Positions 11,966 to 16,421 are shown, numbered from the stretch's first letter. The stretch is DNA of 64,000 nt from Candidatus Rariloculaceae bacterium (GCA_965262365.1 OZ253541.1:5417648-5481647); one strand, 5' to 3'. Translations and numbers: made by a program. The notes: generated by a model not told the origin, from the letters alone.

Positions 11966-11991
11966 TCAGGCCGAAGGCAACGCGTCGACGG
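11966..11991 (-). pseudogene. Detached original 3' end of the aldo/keto reductase gene
   Basis: Joining across the GACGG TSD gives ...MAETV-DALPSA-TGA (stop 11966-11968). Confidence 0.8.
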
Positions 11992-12185
11992 TGTTGTTGG
12001 TCAGACTAGACCGACACGGATTTGTCGGATTATCCGGTCACGGTTGAGGCCGGATTGGTCACATTGTTTTGCTTTTGCCGACCATCGCAGGCCGGTCGCC
12101 GCGACGGCGGTTGGGTGATGGAGGGGCACGACCCGGTCCGATCCGAAGGATCGGCCGGCGTTGGCGGGTCCGTTTGGGCGCGGAT

Positions 12186-12395
12186 TCAGAACGGGCGGGG
12201 TTCGCCGAACAGGTGCAGCTGGCGTTCGTGGCAGGACTCGGCGGGGCACGGGGGCGGCCGGATGGATTCTGCGTGGCGCCTGATCTGGCCGTAGTAGCGG
12301 CCTTCGAAGTCATAGGCGATGCGTTGCAGGCACTCGGCCATGTGCGCGGCGGCCTCGTCGCTGATCTGCTCGGGCCGGGGATCGGGATCGATCAT
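12186..12395 (-). CDS. Small transposon-associated hypothetical protein (69 aa)
   Basis: ATG overlaps the ATPase stop; MIDPDPRPEQISDEAAAHMAECLQRIAYDFEGRYYGQIRRH. Confidence 0.6.
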   Translation of the reverse strand: MIDPDPRPEQISDEAAAHMAECLQRIAYDFEGRYYGQIRRHAESIRPPPCPAESCHERQLHLFGEPRPF

Positions 12396-13192
12396 GGCCG
12401 CAGATCCTCGACGGCGCGGGCCAGGTGTTCGGCGTCCACGGTACGCGCTTGCTCGACCGCCGCGGCCGAGAGCGCGTAGTGGGCGATGCGGTTGATGAGC
12501 CGCGGCAGTCCGCGGGCGGCCTGGTACAGCGCCTCGATGGCGGGGGGATCGAACAGGGGCATTTCGCACCCGGCCAGGCGCAGCCGGTGGGCGAGGTAGG
12601 GGTCCAGTTCCTCGCGCTCCAGCCCGCGCAGGTGGTGTTGAACGATGAGTCGCTGTTGCATCGATTCGTGCACGGCCATGCTCAGGCGCCGGCGCAGTTC
12701 GGTCAGTCCGATGAGCACCAGGCACAGCCTGGGGGCGGAGTCCATGTCGAAGTTGGTCAGCAGCCTGAGGTCCTCGATCACGTCGGCTCTGAGGTGGTGA
12801 GCCTCGTCGATGACGAGCACCGGTTGTTGCTTGGCCTCCCCGACCAGGCGGGTGATCTCGGTCTGGATGGCGCGGTAGGCCGCGGCGCGGGCGTGCTCGG
12901 TAGGCAGGCCCAGTTCCCAGCCGATGCTCTTGTACATGTCCATCACGTTGCCGGTGGACAGCGCCACGTAGCACACCCGGAACAGCCCCGGGTGCAACGC
13001 ACCGGTGACGTGGCGGCACACGCTGGTCTTGCCGCTGCCGGACTCCCCGGTCAGCAGCCCGATACCGCGCAGATCGATGAGGTGCTTGAGCCGCGCCTCG
13101 GCCTCGCGATGGGAGCCGCAGCGGAACAGCTCGTCGGTGTGCGCGGGGGTTTCGAACGGCAGGCGGGTCAGGGCGAAGTGGCGCAGGTACAT
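12392..13192 (-). CDS. ExeA/TnsC-like AAA+ ATPase
   Basis: MYLRHFALTRLPF, Walker A GESGSGKT, Walker B VLVIDEAH, GLPRLIN. Confidence 0.9.
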   Translation of the reverse strand: MYLRHFALTRLPFETPAHTDELFRCGSHREAEARLKHLIDLRGIGLLTGESGSGKTSVCRHVTGALHPGLFRVCYVALSTGNVMDMYKSIGWELGLPTEHARAAAYRAIQTEITRLVGEAKQQPVLVIDEAHHLRADVIEDLRLLTNFDMDSAPRLCLVLIGLTELRRRLSMAVHESMQQRLIVQHHLRGLEREELDPYLAHRLRLAGCEMPLFDPPAIEALYQAARGLPRLINRIAHYALSAAAVEQARTVDAEHLARAVEDLRP

Positions 13193-14523
13193 CAGTCTTC
13201 CTCCTTCAGTCGGCGGATGCTCAGCGGCGAGCGCGGCGGTTGCGGCTCCCCGGGCTCGATGCGCCCGCAGCGGCGCTCGCGTTTCACGGCGGTGTTGGCG
13301 TAGGCGTCCAGCGGCGTGGCCAGGCCCGCGGGACGTCCCTCGTGCACCAGTTGCAGCGCCCGGGTGGGCGGGGCGGCCGGATCGTATCGCACGGTGACGG
13401 TTTGCCCGATGAGGATCGCGTCGGCCTCGTAGAGGCGCCCGTGCAGACTCAGGGTGCGGTCCTTGAGCACGCGGCGTTTGGTCTCGAACAGGAACAGCTC
13501 GTCCAGATCCAGCCCGGCGGCGTCCGGGTAGCGCACCTCGGCGGCGGTCCCGGCCCAGCGGTCCAGCGGGGTCTGACCGTCCAGTCCGCGGTGCGGGGAC
13601 TGATGGTATTCGCCCTCCACCCAGCCGGCCAGCGCACGGTTCAACGCCTCGATCCCGTCGATCGAGCCCACATCCAGATGGCGCAGCCAGCCGGCGCGCA
13701 GGGTGCGGAACCAGCGTTCGATCTTGCCCTTGCCGGCCGGTTGATACGGGCGGGCGTGGATGAGCGCAATGCCGAGCTTCGCGCACACCAGCGCGAGGTG
13801 GCGGGAGCGGTAATTCGCCCCGTTGTCCACGTAGAGGCGCTCGGTGAGTCCGCGGCGCAGCAGCGCGTGCTTGAACACCGGCAGGAACGCGGCGGTGTTC
13901 TCGGCGAAGGCGAACGCGGCGTGGGGAATGACGCGGGTGGCGTCGTCGATGAAGGCGATGAGGAAGGTCTTGCGCCGGCGGCGACCGTCAGGGACCTTCG
14001 GCCCGTGCATTACATCGCTCATCCAGAGTTGGCCCGCCCGGCGATAGTTGAAGCGGCGCCGGTCCGTGGCGGGTCCCTGCGCGGCGGCCCGGCCCGTCAG
14101 CCCCTCGCGGCGCAGCAACCGCTGCACGGTGGACGCCGAGGGCATCGCCGCCTCGCTCACCAGCCCGTGCTCGGCGGCGTGGGCGATGACCGCGCGCACG
14201 GAGTAGCCGGGGCGCCGGGTCTTGATCGCCACCAGCGCCTCGGCGACCTCCGCGGGCATGCGCCGGGGCCGGCCCAGGTCCGAGCGACGTTTCGGGTACA
14301 GCGCCTCGAAGCCACCGTAGCGGTACGTCACCAGCCACTTGCGTATCGTCTCCGCGGCCACCCGGGTGCGGTGCGTGCCGGGGATCGCGTAGGTCCCGGC
14401 GGCCTTTTCTTTCAGCTTCTCACCGATGCCGCGGGCGCCGCGGGGCAGGTGCGCCAAGTCCGCGATCAGCCCGTAGCGGAACAGCGCCACGGCCTCTCGC
14501 AGCTTCTCGTCGTGCTCGGTCAT
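13192..14523 (-). CDS. DDE transposase/integrase (rve core, Mu-like C-terminus)
   Basis: WMSDVMHG, FIDDATR, YVDNGANY, KGKIERWF, YHQSPHRGL. Confidence 0.9.
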   Translation of the reverse strand: MTEHDEKLREAVALFRYGLIADLAHLPRGARGIGEKLKEKAAGTYAIPGTHRTRVAAETIRKWLVTYRYGGFEALYPKRRSDLGRPRRMPAEVAEALVAIKTRRPGYSVRAVIAHAAEHGLVSEAAMPSASTVQRLLRREGLTGRAAAQGPATDRRRFNYRRAGQLWMSDVMHGPKVPDGRRRRKTFLIAFIDDATRVIPHAAFAFAENTAAFLPVFKHALLRRGLTERLYVDNGANYRSRHLALVCAKLGIALIHARPYQPAGKGKIERWFRTLRAGWLRHLDVGSIDGIEALNRALAGWVEGEYHQSPHRGLDGQTPLDRWAGTAAEVRYPDAAGLDLDELFLFETKRRVLKDRTLSLHGRLYEADAILIGQTVTVRYDPAAPPTRALQLVHEGRPAGLATPLDAYANTAVKRERRCGRIEPGEPQPPRSPLSIRRLKEED

Positions 14524-14570
14524 GGTCTCGGCGGCCTCCCCGGGGTCTTGCGCGGTTCACGGTGGCCACG

Positions 14571-15194
14571 TTAGCGCCTGCAAGCCGGTGGATCAGGCCC
14601 CGTCCCGTGTTGGACGACCGCCAGAGCGGTCCCCGGCGCCGGCACGTCAGGACAAAAGCCCAACGGCGGCGCCAGCCGCGCCAGGCGCCCCTCGCACCGC
14701 CCGCGCAGCCCCACCAGCACCGCCTCGGTCTTGAGCCGCTCCCGGAACGCCCCAACTTCCGGGGGACACTTCAGGAACCGCTCCGGCCACAGCCCCCGAA
14801 CCGCCGCCAGGTTCCGATGCACCGCCCGCACCCGGCGGCCCAGCCAGCGCATCGCCCCGGGCAGATGCACCGCGTCGCGCCGCAGCGCGTCGGCCGCCTT
14901 GGCGAGACTGGGCGCGGCCTCCGCCTCAACCACCGCCTCTTCGACCGCCTGCAGCGTGCCCCCCAGCCTCGCCGCCAGGCAATCCGGCAACCGGCTGAAC
15001 GTCATGTGACTCTCAGGACAGTACCAGCGGGCAACGCGCGTCCCGCGCGGGCGCTTGCGCGGGTAGGTCCCGTGGCGGGCGAAGGAACAACCGCCCCGCG
15101 GATGGTTCGGACACCGCTCAAGGGTTGCATCGCGCCATGCACGGCGTTTAACGTATTGCTCGCCGGTAAGCCCCGTTGGATACCGAAGCTGCAC
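14571..15194 (-). CDS. Transposon-associated hypothetical protein with a Cys/His cluster
   Basis: GTG start (VQLRYPTGLTGEQY); CPNHPRGGC..HG..WYCP; first gene of the element. Confidence 0.6.
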   Translation of the reverse strand: MQLRYPTGLTGEQYVKRRAWRDATLERCPNHPRGGCSFARHGTYPRKRPRGTRVARWYCPESHMTFSRLPDCLAARLGGTLQAVEEAVVEAEAAPSLAKAADALRRDAVHLPGAMRWLGRRVRAVHRNLAAVRGLWPERFLKCPPEVGAFRERLKTEAVLVGLRGRCEGRLARLAPPLGFCPDVPAPGTALAVVQHGTGPDPPACRR

Positions 15195-15305
15195 CGGCCA
15201 CGGCCCGGCGGGAATCGTCGTCCCGCGCGGGCCACCCTCCCTTTCCATCCAGGAAGCGCTCAGGTTAACCCAGTGCCCCGCCCCCACGTCGGTCGCGCCA
15301 GCACC

Positions 15306-15380
15306 GCGTTATCCACCGCCTGCCCACCGGCGACAGGGCTGACCAAGGGCCCGCGCCCGTGGACAGCCCGTGGATAACGC
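15306..15380. repeat. Extended inverted repeat / hairpin with DnaA-box-like arms
   Basis: GCGTTATCCAC (15306-15316) and GTGGATAACGC (15370-15380) are perfect complements; inner CTGCCCAC/GTGGACAG also pair. Confidence 0.7.
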
Positions 15381-15485
15381 TACGTCAACGCCGACTTGGC
15401 CGTGCCGGATTAATCCACCACGTCAGACGTTTCACCAGGAAGATAAACCGACCAAAAGGCTCGGTGGTTCAGTGAAAGAATGTGC

Positions 15486-16421
15486 CTAACAACAGACGGT
15501 TTCCGCCATCCGCTGCAGCGTTGCCGCGTCCGGAATTGCGCCCCTGCCGCCCATGAGGTTGTCCAACATGTTCGCCGGCCTGCTGGTCGCCGGGGTGATG
15601 ACGGTCACCGCCGGATGGGCTGCGACGTACTTGAGGAAGAACTGGGCCCAGGAAGTGGCGCCGAACTCCGCCGCCCATTCGGGCACGTCGCGTCCGGAAA
15701 CCCTGTTCCACAGCCTGGTACGTCCGAACGGCGCGTAAACCAGCACGCCGATGCCGCGGTCCTGCGCCAGCGGCAGGATCGTTTCCGCAGCCACGCGGTT
15801 GTCCACGGCGTAGTCCACGCCGATGAAGTCGATGGAATAGTCGCGCATGACCTGGACAAACTCGTCGTAGCGGCGATCGGTGGTACACGTGATGCCGGTG
15901 TAGCGCACCCGGCCTTGCGCCTTCAGTTCACTCAGGATTTCCAACTGCGTCGGCGGGTCGCCCAGGTTGTGGACTTGAATTAGGTCGATGGGCGTCTTCC
16001 GGATGCGTTCGAAAGATGTTTCGATCTGCTGCCATGCGCGATCGGGGTCCGCCGCCCCGCCTCCACGGGCGGCGACATTGAGCTTGGTGGCCCAGAAGAC
16101 GCGATCGTGGGCTTCCATGTCGTTTATTATCGATGCGGCCACCTCTTCGGAGACGCCGTAACCGGGTGCGGTGTCGAATACGCTGCCGCCGTTGTCCAGC
16201 AGCGTCGTCAACACGCCGCGCAGCGCCGTTACGTCGTCGCTGCGAGCCACTCTGGAAAACGTCGCCGAACTGCCCAGGCCGATGATGGGCAGTTCCTCGC
16301 CCGTCGAGGGGACCGCCCGGGTGATCATGGGCGCATCCTGGGCCTGCAACAATCGTGGATGGATTGCCAGAGCCGTGCCGGCGGCAGCAGTCAGCTTGAG
16401 CCATTCGCGTCGTGTGTACAT
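15486..16421 (-). CDS. Aldo/keto reductase with a Tat-like signal; last 6 codons replaced by transposon sequence
   Basis: MYTRREWLK; IGLGS, FDTAPGYG, WATK, IDLIQVHNL, YAPFG, ITPATS. Confidence 0.9.
   Translation of the reverse strand: MYTRREWLKLTAAAGTALAIHPRLLQAQDAPMITRAVPSTGEELPIIGLGSSATFSRVARSDDVTALRGVLTTLLDNGGSVFDTAPGYGVSEEVAASIINDMEAHDRVFWATKLNVAARGGGAADPDRAWQQIETSFERIRKTPIDLIQVHNLGDPPTQLEILSELKAQGRVRYTGITCTTDRRYDEFVQVMRDYSIDFIGVDYAVDNRVAAETILPLAQDRGIGVLVYAPFGRTRLWNRVSGRDVPEWAAEFGATSWAQFFLKYVAAHPAVTVITPATSRPANMLDNLMGGRGAIPDAATLQRMAETVCC

What the first reader, a model, noticed from the sequence alone, without database searches (positions are those of the whole stretch)
11992..15494. Complete four-gene Mu/Tn7-like transposon with no TnsA or TniQ but two unknown ORFs
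Seen: TGTTGTT...AACAACA ends, perfect 5-bp TSD, related subterminal motifs (GGATTATCCGG / CCGGATTAATCC), and ORF(Cys/His)-DDE-AAA ATPase-69-aa ORF, the last three coupled by overlaps. Established: TG...CA ends, a 5-bp TSD and a DDE + AAA pair typify Mu, Tn7 and Tn5053 relatives, which use extra proteins for target choice. Inference: the two unknown ORFs may be an uncharacterised targeting or regulatory module.
Basis: partly seen in the sequence, partly recalled or inferred. Interest (0 to 1): 0.65.

Follow-up and report, generated by a model that had tools for sequence, protein, structure and literature searches.

The report
Active four-gene Tn6049-like transposon
This is an intact, recently active 3.5-kb jumping gene from a widespread but almost unstudied group (named example: Tn6049), and its two "unknown" genes look like a DNA-binding control protein and a small adaptor carrying peptide motifs that dock onto the DNA-replication machinery.

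Summary
Window 11992-15494 is a 3503-bp element with TGTTGTT...AACAACA tips and a GACGG duplication. It has inward-facing GGATT repeats near both ends and four minus-strand genes. The genome carries 8 near-identical copies, 4 copies at 91% identity, and fragments.

- **Core.** The core is an IS481/Mu-type DDE transposase plus a MuB/TnsC-like AAA_22 ATPase. There is no TnsA, TniQ or resolvase.
- **Known kind.** The gene order matches Tn6049 of Cupriavidus metallidurans and the DUF6431-DDE-AAA units annotated on many plasmids. It is a new member of a named but mechanistically unstudied kind.
- **ORF1.** It is 207 aa, not 238. It is a divergent DUF6431-type zinc-ribbon/HTH protein (hhalign 97.7%). 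A confident model (pLDDT 94) matches no solved structure, TniQ/TnsD included. The same protein family is also the first gene of tyrosine-recombinase-trio (RIT) elements, which favours a portable regulator over an ATPase adaptor.
- **ORF4.** It is kept in position across phyla. Of 121 homologues, 85 carry QLxL[F/W], the beta-clamp motif type, and most end in an acidic, SSB-like ...PF tail.
- **Targeting.** Insertions show no site specificity and no orientation bias relative to replication (28 vs 32).

The roles of ORF1 and ORF4 remain inferred.

The parts
11992..15494 (-). Whole transposon, 3503 bp; genes read on the minus strand
   Evidence: 8 copies at about 100% identity and 4 at 91% in the same genome, all with these exact boundaries.
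11987..11991 (.). Target-site duplication GACGG, left copy
   Evidence: Identical 5-mer at 15495-15499. Other copies have different 5-bp or 6-bp duplications.
15495..15499 (.). Target-site duplication GACGG, right copy
15488..15494 (.). Terminal AACAACA. This is the 5' tip (TGTTGTT) in gene orientation.
   Evidence: TGTTGT...ACAACA tips are shared by family members in six other genomes.
11992..11998 (.). Terminal TGTTGTT. This is the 3' tip in gene orientation.
12018..12056 (+). Three direct GGATT-core subterminal repeats (12018, 12027, 12052). Probable transposase binding sites.
   Evidence: GGATT is enriched in the terminal 130 nt (p = 1e-4) and sits at conserved offsets in relatives.
15405..15416 (.). 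Palindromic subterminal site CCGGATTAATCC at the other end
15306..15380 (.). Inverted repeat with 27-nt arms (85% complementary, 21-nt spacer) in the 300-nt leader upstream of ORF1. Candidate operator or read-through terminator.
   Evidence: I3. It is kept in L020. L049 has a different 21-nt perfect palindrome in the same region, and L099 has a 16-nt one at 88%. It is not found in every subfamily.
14571..15194 (-). ORF1, 207 aa, GTG start. Zinc-ribbon (C28, H31, C36, H41, C59, H63) plus helical HTH-like domain; divergent DUF6431 type.
   Evidence: 1389 homologues and 1143 clusters at 50% identity. AF2 model pLDDT 94. hhalign against DUF6431+HTH proteins gives 97.7% probability. No fold match in PDB or BFVD.
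13192..14523 (-). tnpA, 443 aa. DDE transposase with HTH_32 + rve + Mu-transpos_C domains; proposed catalytic D170, D233, E269.
   Evidence: Pfam. NCBIfam IS481 model scores 209 bits against a cut-off of 224. Best PDB match is TnsB at 4e-8. Motif positions.
12392..13192 (-). AAA_22 ATPase, 266 aa, ExeA/GspA-like. The start overlaps the tnpA stop (TGATG) and follows a GGAGG ribosome-binding site.
   Evidence: Pfam AAA_22 1e-23. Best PDB match is MuB at 1e-4.
12186..12395 (-). ORF4, 69 aa. ATGA overlap with the ATPase stop. N-terminal SDEAA...RYYGQIRR helix; C-terminal QLHLF followed by ...PF at the end.
   Evidence: dN/dS 0.19. Kept in position in most lineages of the family. 916 homologues. 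Motif counts.
15486..16421 (-). Host aldo/keto-reductase-like gene whose last 6 codons were replaced by the insertion
   Evidence: Joining the flanks restores ...AETVDALPSA* in place of ...AETVCC*.

Best explanation
**Shown**
- This is an intact, recently active copy of a 3.5-kb heteromeric DDE transposon of the Tn6049-like / DUF6431-DDE-AAA group.
- TnpA is an IS481/Mu-type enzyme with a DD35E spacing. The element has TGT...ACA tips and arrays of GGATT repeats just inside them.
- Insertion leaves a staggered gap of mostly 5 bp, with only a weak C-C-N-G-S preference.
- The AAA_22 ATPase resembles MuB and TnsC.
- There is no TnsA-type second nuclease and no resolvase.

**Inferred from the families**
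- TnpA binds the GGATT arrays and cuts at the tips.
- The ATPase is the ATP-dependent target-DNA-binding activator of the transposase.
- The pathway (replicative, or copy-out/paste-in as in IS3/IS21) is not settled. Either way the element must rely on host replication or repair.

**Inferred for the two extra genes**
- ORF1 is a dimer-type zinc-ribbon/HTH DNA-binding protein. It most likely controls expression or activity of the operon it heads, in the way InsA does for IS1. It behaves as a portable promoter-proximal cassette, because the same family also heads tyrosine-recombinase-trio (RIT) elements.
- ORF4 is a small adaptor. Its N-terminal helix would hold it on the ATPase/transposase complex, with which it is translationally coupled. 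Its disordered tail would dock on the beta sliding clamp (QLxLF) and on partners of the SSB tail (acidic ...D-x-P-F end). This would couple the strand-transfer product to host replication or repair rather than choose the target.
For: **Identity and activity**
- Copy number, exact boundaries and duplications.
- Domains. Best PDB matches are TnsB (4e-8) and MuB (1e-4).
- Terminal repeats.
- The family is multicopy in MAGs labelled Gamma- and Alphaproteobacteria and Spirochaetia. Single copies occur in MAGs labelled Cyanobacteria, Gemmatimonadetes, Chloroflexota and Acidobacteria. The tips and duplications are the same in six other genomes.
- Same four-gene layout in Tn6049 on pMOL30 (TnpA 27% identity at E 1e-28, ATPase 27% at E 2e-14). 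The layout recurs in DUF6431 units on Cupriavidus, Acidithiobacillus, Geobacillus, Streptomyces and Rhodococcus plasmids.

**ORF1**
- hhalign against DUF6431+HTH proteins: 97.7%, E 2e-12 over 139 columns, including the HTH.
- Conserved Cys/His ligands and basic helix R116/W117/R120/R121.
- Confident model.
- Palindromes lie upstream of ORF1 in three subfamilies.
- An ORF1 homologue lies inside a 4.1-kb RIT unit with three identical copies. It sits directly upstream of RitABC in four further records.

**ORF4**
- ATGA coupling; dN/dS 0.19; positional conservation.
- Of 121 distinct homologues, 85 have QLxL[F/W] and 104 have QxxL[F/W] in the last 22 residues. 98 end in an aromatic residue and 100 have at least 2 acidic residues in the last 8.
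- The bacterial DnaN-binding consensus is QL[S/D]LF (PMC11417375).
- The host's own SSB ends ...DDLDDDIPF, against ORF4 tails ELDIPF and DDDLPF.
- ORF4 is absent from the RIT units, so it goes with the DDE/ATPase machinery.
Against: - No experiment exists for any family member. The literature on Tn6049 says only that its transposition module could not be categorised (PMC6210171).
- The window's own ORF4 tail (QLHLFGEPRPF) is only weakly acidic.
- One lineage (OZ244045, at least 15 copies) has lost the ORF4 tail yet multiplied. So ORF4 is not strictly required, or it acts in trans.
- Some subfamilies replace ORF4 with other genes, for example a 350-aa AAA_25-like protein in L074.
- The palindrome upstream of ORF1 is not universal.
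- Tn6049's own first ORF is not detectably homologous to ORF1.
- Short linear motifs can be convergent or non-functional.
- ORF1 could instead be an essential end-binding subunit.
Confidence: 0.55

Rival explanations
1. ORF4 is a TnsE-like target selector. By binding the beta clamp it steers insertions into replicating (lagging-strand) DNA, so it is the element's targeting module.
For: The QLxLF-type motif and SSB-like tail are conserved. Clamp-directed targeting is known for Tn7 TnsE, Tn3-family TnpA and several IS transposases (PMC11417375, PMC3971601).
Against: Across six complete genomes, copies co-directional with replication number 28 and head-on copies 32. TnsE-type targeting would give a strong orientation bias. 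The caveat is that origins were placed from dnaA or GC skew only, and later inversions could blur a bias. A lineage without the ORF4 tail still reached at least 15 copies.
Confidence: 0.15
2. ORF1 is a functional analogue of TniQ/TnsD. On this reading it is a zinc-finger adaptor that binds target DNA and recruits the AAA ATPase, so it selects the target.
For: It has a zinc-binding N-terminus and a DNA-binding-type helical domain. It is the first gene of the operon. One metagenomic protein fuses it to TnpA (P0179).
Against: Pfam gives no TniQ hit. A pLDDT-94 model has no significant match to any PDB chain, a set that includes TniQ and TnsD structures (best E 0.43). Insertion sites share no sequence beyond a weak C-C-N-G-S. 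The same protein family heads RIT elements, which have no ATPase.
Confidence: 0.1
3. ORF1 is an essential end-recognition or transpososome-assembly subunit rather than a regulator. On this reading it would bind the GGATT arrays or the tips and deliver TnpA.
For: TnpA has only one HTH_32 region. ORF1-like Zn-ribbon+HTH architecture resembles the N-terminal DNA-binding part of ISL3 and IS1 transposases (weak Pfam hits in relatives). It is strictly syntenic with tnpA across phyla.
Against: It would have to work with two unrelated recombination chemistries, at ends that share no sequence. The RIT inverted repeat is CAGTATCCCGAGTAC..., against TGTTGT/GGATT here.
Confidence: 0.2
4. ORF1 and ORF4 are passenger genes with a host-directed role unrelated to transposition.
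For: Neither protein has an assigned function. Some lineages swap ORF4 for other genes.
Against: Position and coupling are fixed across phyla. The proteins are small. ORF1 has DNA-binding domains typical of transposition proteins. The ORF4 motifs point to replication proteins.
Confidence: 0.05

Closest known systems
Tn6049 of Cupriavidus metallidurans CH34 (12 copies; also on P. aeruginosa pHS87a)
   Same: It is about 3.5 kb and multicopy, with TGT...ACA tips and a short duplication. The gene order is identical: small Cys-rich protein, IS481-type DDE transposase, AAA_22 'gspA' ATPase, then a roughly 70-aa ORF with an acidic tail ending in F.
   Different: The core proteins are only 27% identical. 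Tn6049's first ORF is not detectably related to ORF1 and has no DUF6431 hit. Its small ORF lacks QLxLF. Its tips are TGTGC rather than TGTTGT.
Unnamed DUF6431 / DDE / AAA ATPase / small-ORF units annotated on plasmids (C. necator pBB2, A. caldus, Geobacillus, Streptomyces, Rhodococcus)
   Same: Same architecture. TnpA is 36-38% identical. The first gene is homologous to ORF1 by profile comparison (97.7%). The small ORF in C. necator keeps SDEAA, Y..Q.RRY and ...ELDLPF.
   Different: Canonical DUF6431 has CxxC...CxxC, whereas ORF1 here has CxxH...CxxxH. Only 10 of 60 members of the ORF1 family touch the Pfam model, and weakly.
Tn7 and Tn7-like elements (TnsA, TnsB, TnsC, TnsD/TniQ, TnsE)
   Same: TGT...ACA tips, a 5-bp duplication and multiple subterminal transposase sites. 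The transposase has a Mu-C-type domain and its best PDB match is TnsB. It has an AAA_22 helper ATPase.
   Different: No TnsA, no TniQ/TnsD, no attachment-site specificity and no orientation bias. It is far smaller and carries no cargo.
Phage Mu MuA/MuB; Tn552 (p480/p271/BinL); Tn5053/Tn402 (TniA/B/Q/R)
   Same: A DDE transposase paired with an ATP-dependent target-binding ATPase. Protein sizes are like Tn552 p480/p271. The best PDB match of the ATPase is MuB.
   Different: No resolvase or res site, no TniQ and no phage functions. It has two extra small proteins with no counterpart in those systems.
IS481 family and IS21 family insertion sequences
   Same: The TnpA core scores highest with the IS481 model (209 bits). 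Like IS21, it is a small IS-sized element with a transposase plus a helper ATPase.
   Different: The score is below the IS481 cut-off of 224, and classical IS481 elements have one gene and are about 1 kb. The ATPase is AAA_22 (ExeA/MuB-like), not IstB/DnaC-like, and the IS21 model scores 39.5 against a cut-off of 160.
RIT (recombinase-in-trio) elements
   Same: They share the ORF1-family gene as their first gene.
   Different: They move by three tyrosine recombinases. They have no DDE transposase, no ATPase and no ORF4, and their ends are different.

Membership tests
Tn6049-like four-gene transposons | About 3.5-kb multicopy unit with TGT...ACA tips and a short target duplication | tested here: met
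   Tn6049 ends were read.
Tn6049-like four-gene transposons | Gene order: small Cys-rich protein, IS481-type DDE transposase, AAA_22 ATPase, about 70-aa ORF | tested here: met
   Window. Tn6049 on pMOL30.
Tn6049-like four-gene transposons | Sequence homology of transposase and ATPase to those of Tn6049 | tested here: met
   27% identity at E 1e-28 and 27% at E 2e-14. The relationship is distant.
Tn6049-like four-gene transposons | Homology of the first small protein to that of Tn6049 | tested here: not met
   hhalign probability 0.3%. Only the Cys-pair pattern looks alike.
DUF6431-DDE-AAA elements | First gene is a DUF6431 zinc-ribbon plus HTH protein | tested here: met
   Profile-profile 97.7%, E 2e-12. 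The direct Pfam hit is only weak, in 10 of 60 family members.
Tn7-like | TnsA endonuclease | tested here: not met
   No Pfam hit in any of the four proteins, and there is no room for another gene.
Tn7-like | TniQ/TnsD target selector | tested here: not met
   No Pfam hit. No fold match for ORF1.
Tn7-like | TnsB-type transposase, TnsC-type ATPase, 5-bp duplication | tested here: met
Tn5053/Tn402 and Tn552 | Resolvase (TniR/BinL) with a res site; TniQ for Tn5053 | tested here: not met
   Only four genes, none a recombinase.
IS21 | IstA transposase with an IstB (DnaC-like) ATPase | tested here: not met
   NCBIfam IS21 scores 39.5 bits against a cut-off of 160. The ATPase is AAA_22 and has no IstB_IS21 hit.
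IS481 | Transposase reaches the curated IS481 model cut-off; single-gene element of about 1 kb | tested here: not met
   209.1 bits against a cut-off of 224. The element has four genes and is 3.5 kb.
Beta-clamp-binding proteins | Accessible QL[S/D]LF-type pentapeptide that binds DnaN | tested here: inconclusive
   The motif is present and conserved (85 of 121 homologues). Binding cannot be tested with these tools.

The most novel reading that the evidence does not exclude
Two claims together.

1. The ORF1-family zinc-ribbon/HTH protein is a portable control cassette. It has been exchanged between mechanistically unrelated mobile elements: DDE/AAA+ transposons and tyrosine-recombinase trios.
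2. ORF4 is a dedicated adaptor whose tail combines a beta-clamp motif with an SSB-tail mimic.

If both hold, these very common elements are a minimal, so far undescribed class of replisome-coupled transposons in which the docking function sits on a separate 70-aa subunit instead of on the transposase.
Probability: 0.3. Interest if true: 0.7.

Novelty: new member of a known kind. Interest (0 to 1): 0.45.

Why it matters
ATPase-assisted DDE transposons (Mu, Tn7, Tn5053, IS21) are the models for regulated target capture and the basis of CRISPR-guided transposition tools. This group is as compact as an IS and very widespread: ORF1 has about 1100 clusters at 50% identity and ORF4 about 900 homologues. 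It also multiplies to many copies per genome, yet it has never been studied at the bench.

If the 70-aa protein really docks the complex onto the clamp and SSB network, it would be a simple, separable handle for asking how transposition intermediates are handed to the host replisome. If ORF1 is a swappable regulator shared with RIT elements, it could open a way into the unknown biology of RITs. As a single genomic locus, though, this is one more copy of a kind that public annotation and this scan have already met many times.

Tried and rejected
- **Fold match for ORF1.** The first AF2 run with 18 sequences was poor (pLDDT 55). A rerun with 60 diverse sequences gave pLDDT 94. Foldseek against PDB and BFVD found nothing below E 0.1, only local zinc-ribbon look-alikes. 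The TniQ/TnsD reading was rejected.
- **PDB sequence search with the ORF1 profile.** No hit.
- **Orientation bias relative to replication.** None found, 28 vs 32. Strict TnsE-like targeting was rejected.
- **Site specificity.** Only a weak C-C-N-G-S preference.
- **Promoter and terminator scan of the element.** Nothing above the shuffle expectation.
- **Universal palindrome upstream of ORF1.** Present in some subfamilies only.
- **Direct homology of ORF1 to Tn6049's first ORF.** Not detected.
- **Programmed ORF1-TnpA fusion.** The frames differ and only 11 open codons precede the tnpA ATG. It was judged unlikely, and the fused metagenomic protein P0179 is probably an indel.
- **Literature searches.** Searches for IS481+ATPase, ExeA+transposase and DUF6431 gave no mechanistic study.

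Full report
**1. The observation**

The sequence at 11992-15494 begins TGTTGTT and ends AACAACA. It is flanked on both sides by GACGG.

A search of the whole 6.03-Mb genome with this stretch returned the following, each copy starting and ending at exactly these bases:
- 8 full-length copies differing by 0-3 bases;
- 4 copies of a 3492-bp variant at 91% identity;
- several truncated remnants.

So the boundaries are right and the element has moved recently.

Six of the eight near-identical copies carry 5-bp duplications and two carry 6-bp ones, all of different sequence. Across 68 distinct insertions of the family in seven sublineages, the duplication lengths are:

| Duplication | Insertions |
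|---|---|
| 5 bp | 41 |
| 4 bp | 12 |
| 6 bp | 6 |
| 7 bp | 2 |
| 3 bp | 1 |
| none | 6 |

The only sequence preference is a weak C-C-N-G-S.

The GGATT core occurs 5 times in the outer 260 nt against 3 times in the inner 3243 nt (p = 1e-4). It faces inward at both ends, and it sits at the same offsets in relatives from other genomes.

**2. The genes**

All four genes lie on the minus strand.

- **tnpA (13192-14523, 443 aa).** It has HTH_32, rve and Mu-transpos_C domains. Its best curated model is IS481, at 209 bits against a cut-off of 224. Its best solved relative is TnsB, E 4e-8. The proposed catalytic residues are D170, D233 and E269.
- **ATPase (12392-13192, 266 aa).** It is AAA_22, ExeA/GspA-like. 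Its best solved relative is MuB, E 1e-4. Its ATG overlaps the tnpA stop (TGATG) and follows a GGAGG site.
- **ORF4 (12186-12395, 69 aa).** Its ATG overlaps the ATPase stop (ATGA).
- **ORF1.** The 91% variant has a 1-nt deletion at 15215, so the shared frame starts at the GTG at 15194. This gives 207 aa, which is the length of most of the best 120 listed homologues.

dN/dS between the two variants in this genome is 0.53 for ORF1, 0.27 for tnpA, 0.20 for the ATPase and 0.19 for ORF4. All four are therefore coding. None hits TnsA, TniQ or a resolvase.

**3. The family**

ORF1 has 1389 close homologues with no Pfam domain and no name. It has 1143 clusters at 50% identity.

In public genomes, ORF1-tnpA-ATPase keeps its order in MAGs labelled Gamma- and Alphaproteobacteria, Cyanobacteria, Gemmatimonadetes, Spirochaetia, Chloroflexota and Acidobacteria. 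It is often present in many copies. The elements compared in six other genomes share the TGTTGT...ACAACA tips and short duplications.

Among 60 relatives of the host, only two other genomes of the same genus, both about 6 Mb, carry it. This fits horizontal spread, although fragmented assemblies can lose repeats.

On annotated plasmids the same layout appears as 'DUF6431 domain-containing protein / DDE-type integrase-transposase (or IS481 family transposase) / AAA family ATPase / small hypothetical'. It is found in Cupriavidus, Acidithiobacillus, Geobacillus, Streptomyces and Rhodococcus, with TnpA 36-38% identical to the window's.

The named example is Tn6049 of C. metallidurans CH34. It is 3.5 kb with 12 copies, all carrying a 'gspA' ATPase (PMC2864759). 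Its copy on pHS87a has 12-bp imperfect inverted repeats (PMC4739549). Its module 'could not be categorized' (PMC6210171).

I read the pMOL30 copy directly. It encodes a 181-aa Cys-rich protein, a 479-aa IS481-family transposase, a 277-aa AAA ATPase and a 71-aa ORF, with TGTGC...GCACA tips. The core proteins are 27% identical to the window's. The first ORF is not detectably related to ORF1. So the window element is a member of this loose, named but unstudied kind, on a branch of its own.

**4. ORF1**

The family keeps C28, H31, C36, H41, C59, H63, a basic helix (R116, W117, R120, R121) and a C-terminal Q-H-x-x-G-P-D-P-P.

With 60 diverse sequences, AlphaFold gives pLDDT 94 and pTM 0.85. The model has an N-terminal three-stranded zinc ribbon and a helical domain. 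Foldseek finds nothing significant in the PDB or BFVD, only local zinc-ribbon look-alikes. It is therefore not TniQ/TnsD-like.

A profile comparison with the DUF6431+HTH proteins that hold the same position in the plasmid elements gives 97.7% probability (E 2e-12, 139 columns). The aligned region covers both the ribbon and the HTH. In ORF1 the canonical CxxC pairs have become CxxH and CxxxH.

The same protein family also belongs to a different kind of mobile element.
- In Cupriavidus sp. P-10 pMTS1, a 4119-bp unit is present in three identical copies. It is bounded by its own inverted repeats and consists of an ORF1 homologue (47% identical) followed by three tyrosine recombinases, a RIT element.
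- The same arrangement is found in Marinobacter pMAQU02, R. leguminosarum, M. japonicum pMLa and a metagenomic representative.
- No tnpA or ATPase remnant follows in the two loci I checked by tblastn, L099 and L100.
- Separately, a RIT can sit inside the tnpA of such a transposon (L121). This was noted for Acidithiobacillus (PMC3414803).
- On a small tree, RIT-linked and DDE-linked ORF1s are interleaved with moderate support.

A protein that serves both a DDE/ATPase machine and a tyrosine-recombinase machine, at ends with no shared sequence, is more easily a promoter-proximal regulator carried as a cassette than an adaptor for the ATPase or an end-binding subunit. Palindromes upstream of ORF1 in three subfamilies fit an operator, but they are not universal.

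**5. ORF4**

A short ORF follows the ATPase in most sublineages. A profile of twelve of these ORFs finds 916 homologues, all unnamed.

The N-terminal part (P..ISDEAA...L..IA...RYYGQIRRYY) is helical in character and conserved. The tail carries two short motifs. Counts among 121 distinct homologues:

| Feature | Homologues |
|---|---|
| QLxL[F/W] in the last 22 residues | 85 |
| QxxL[F/W] in the last 22 residues | 104 |
| Ends in an aromatic residue | 98 |
| At least 2 acidic residues in the last 8 | 100 |
| Ends in PF or PY | 59 |

Typical tails are RQLALFPELDHPF, RQLELFVDDDAAF and, in the window, RQLHLFGEPRPF. A short form ends at Q-P-D-L-W-D.

QL[S/D]LF is the consensus DnaN-binding motif (PMC11417375). 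The host's main SSB ends ...DDLDDDIPF. ORF4 is absent from the RIT units, so it belongs with the transposase/ATPase pair.

Clamp contacts are known for Tn7 TnsE, Tn3-family TnpA and several IS transposases (PMC11417375, PMC3971601). Here the motif would sit on a separate small subunit.

I tested the obvious prediction of a TnsE-like role. I placed origins by GC skew for the own genome and by dnaA, and copies by the ATPase gene. Co-directional copies number 28 and head-on copies 32 over six genomes, which is no bias. One lineage (OZ244045) has lost the tail of ORF4 and still has at least 15 copies. Another carries a 350-aa AAA_25-like gene in that slot.

I therefore favour a role after target capture, in handing the strand-transfer product to host replication or repair. 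This step is needed because the element has neither a second nuclease nor a resolvase. I hold this loosely.

**6. Local context**

This copy landed six codons before the stop of an aldo/keto-reductase-like gene. It replaced ...VDALPSA* with ...VCC*, so the gene is probably still functional.

**7. What could not be done**

Circle junctions, cointegrates and polymorphic empty sites could not be sought, so the pathway (replicative versus copy-out/paste-in) stays open.

**8. Earlier notes of this scan**

An earlier report on another copy in this genome reached the same Tn6049-like reading and the replisome-motif idea. I re-derived both from my own searches before and after seeing it. I add four things: the motif counts, the orientation test, the loss of ORF4 in one lineage, and the RIT link, which I did not find in the notes I searched.

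**Verdict**

The element is real, intact, active and correctly delimited. It is a new member of a named but unstudied kind. The two extra genes are conserved and uncharacterised. ORF1 is best read as a DNA-binding control protein and ORF4 as a replisome-docking adaptor, and neither reads as a TniQ-like target selector.

Noticed in passing
L099:4342-8460 (Cupriavidus sp. P-10 pMTS1); also L100, L109, L110, L117: A 4.1-kb unit with three identical copies. It consists of an unannotated ORF1-family gene followed by three tyrosine recombinases (RIT), bounded by its own inverted repeats. ORF1-like genes sit directly upstream of RitABC in four further records. The RIT description I read does not mention a fourth gene.
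   Followed up: partly
L121:5182-9430: A RIT trio in opposite orientation interrupts the tnpA of an ORF1-tnpA element. RITs therefore both share a gene with these transposons and insert into them.
   Followed up: no
Genome G000, e.g. C1:4856345, 2034561, 5075414 and about 20 more: The genome has 23 matches to the SSB family model. Of the 20 translated, 19 are about 143-153 aa and end in (D/E)(I/V)PF. This is far more SSB paralogues than usual, and they are presumably carried by some multicopy mobile element.
   Followed up: no
L055 (Spirochaetia MAG OZ253572) vs L057 (Chloroflexota MAG CBDHGI01): A 3528-bp family member is 99.97% identical in MAGs assigned to two different phyla. This means either very recent cross-phylum transfer or mis-binning.
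   Followed up: no
L074:7799-8851 (Alphaproteobacteria MAG, 4.38-kb variant, 25 or more copies): In this lineage the ORF4 slot holds a 350-aa AAA_25/RepA-like P-loop protein with a winged-helix tail.
   Followed up: no
L029/L025:7790-8060 (Gammaproteobacteria MAG OZ244045): ORF4 has lost its RYY...QLxLF...PF part here, yet the element has at least 15 copies at 97-100% identity.
   Followed up: partly
G000 C1:1630229-1633720 and C1:4887051-4890542: Two copies of the 91% variant share an identical right flank of at least 30 nt. One of them lacks a duplication. This points to a segmental duplication or a rearrangement between copies.
   Followed up: no
L117:4545-4955, L118:92-502, L124:176-571: A 131-136-aa SEC-C-motif protein is encoded divergently just upstream of RIT-linked ORF1 homologues in three unrelated metagenomic contigs.
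   Followed up: no
L064:6493-9861: An orphan ORF1 copy is followed by a large serine recombinase and two 298-aa ParB-like genes. This trio is also flagged elsewhere in the scan's notes.
   Followed up: no
window 14574-14600 (ORF1 C-terminus): The last residues of ORF1 hold a motif Q-H-x-x-G-P-D-P-P in a lower-confidence, probably disordered tail. It is near-invariant: Q195, G199, D201, P202 and P203 are invariant across the 18 sequences of A1, and it recurs in the 60-sequence consensus. It may be a docking peptide.
   Followed up: no
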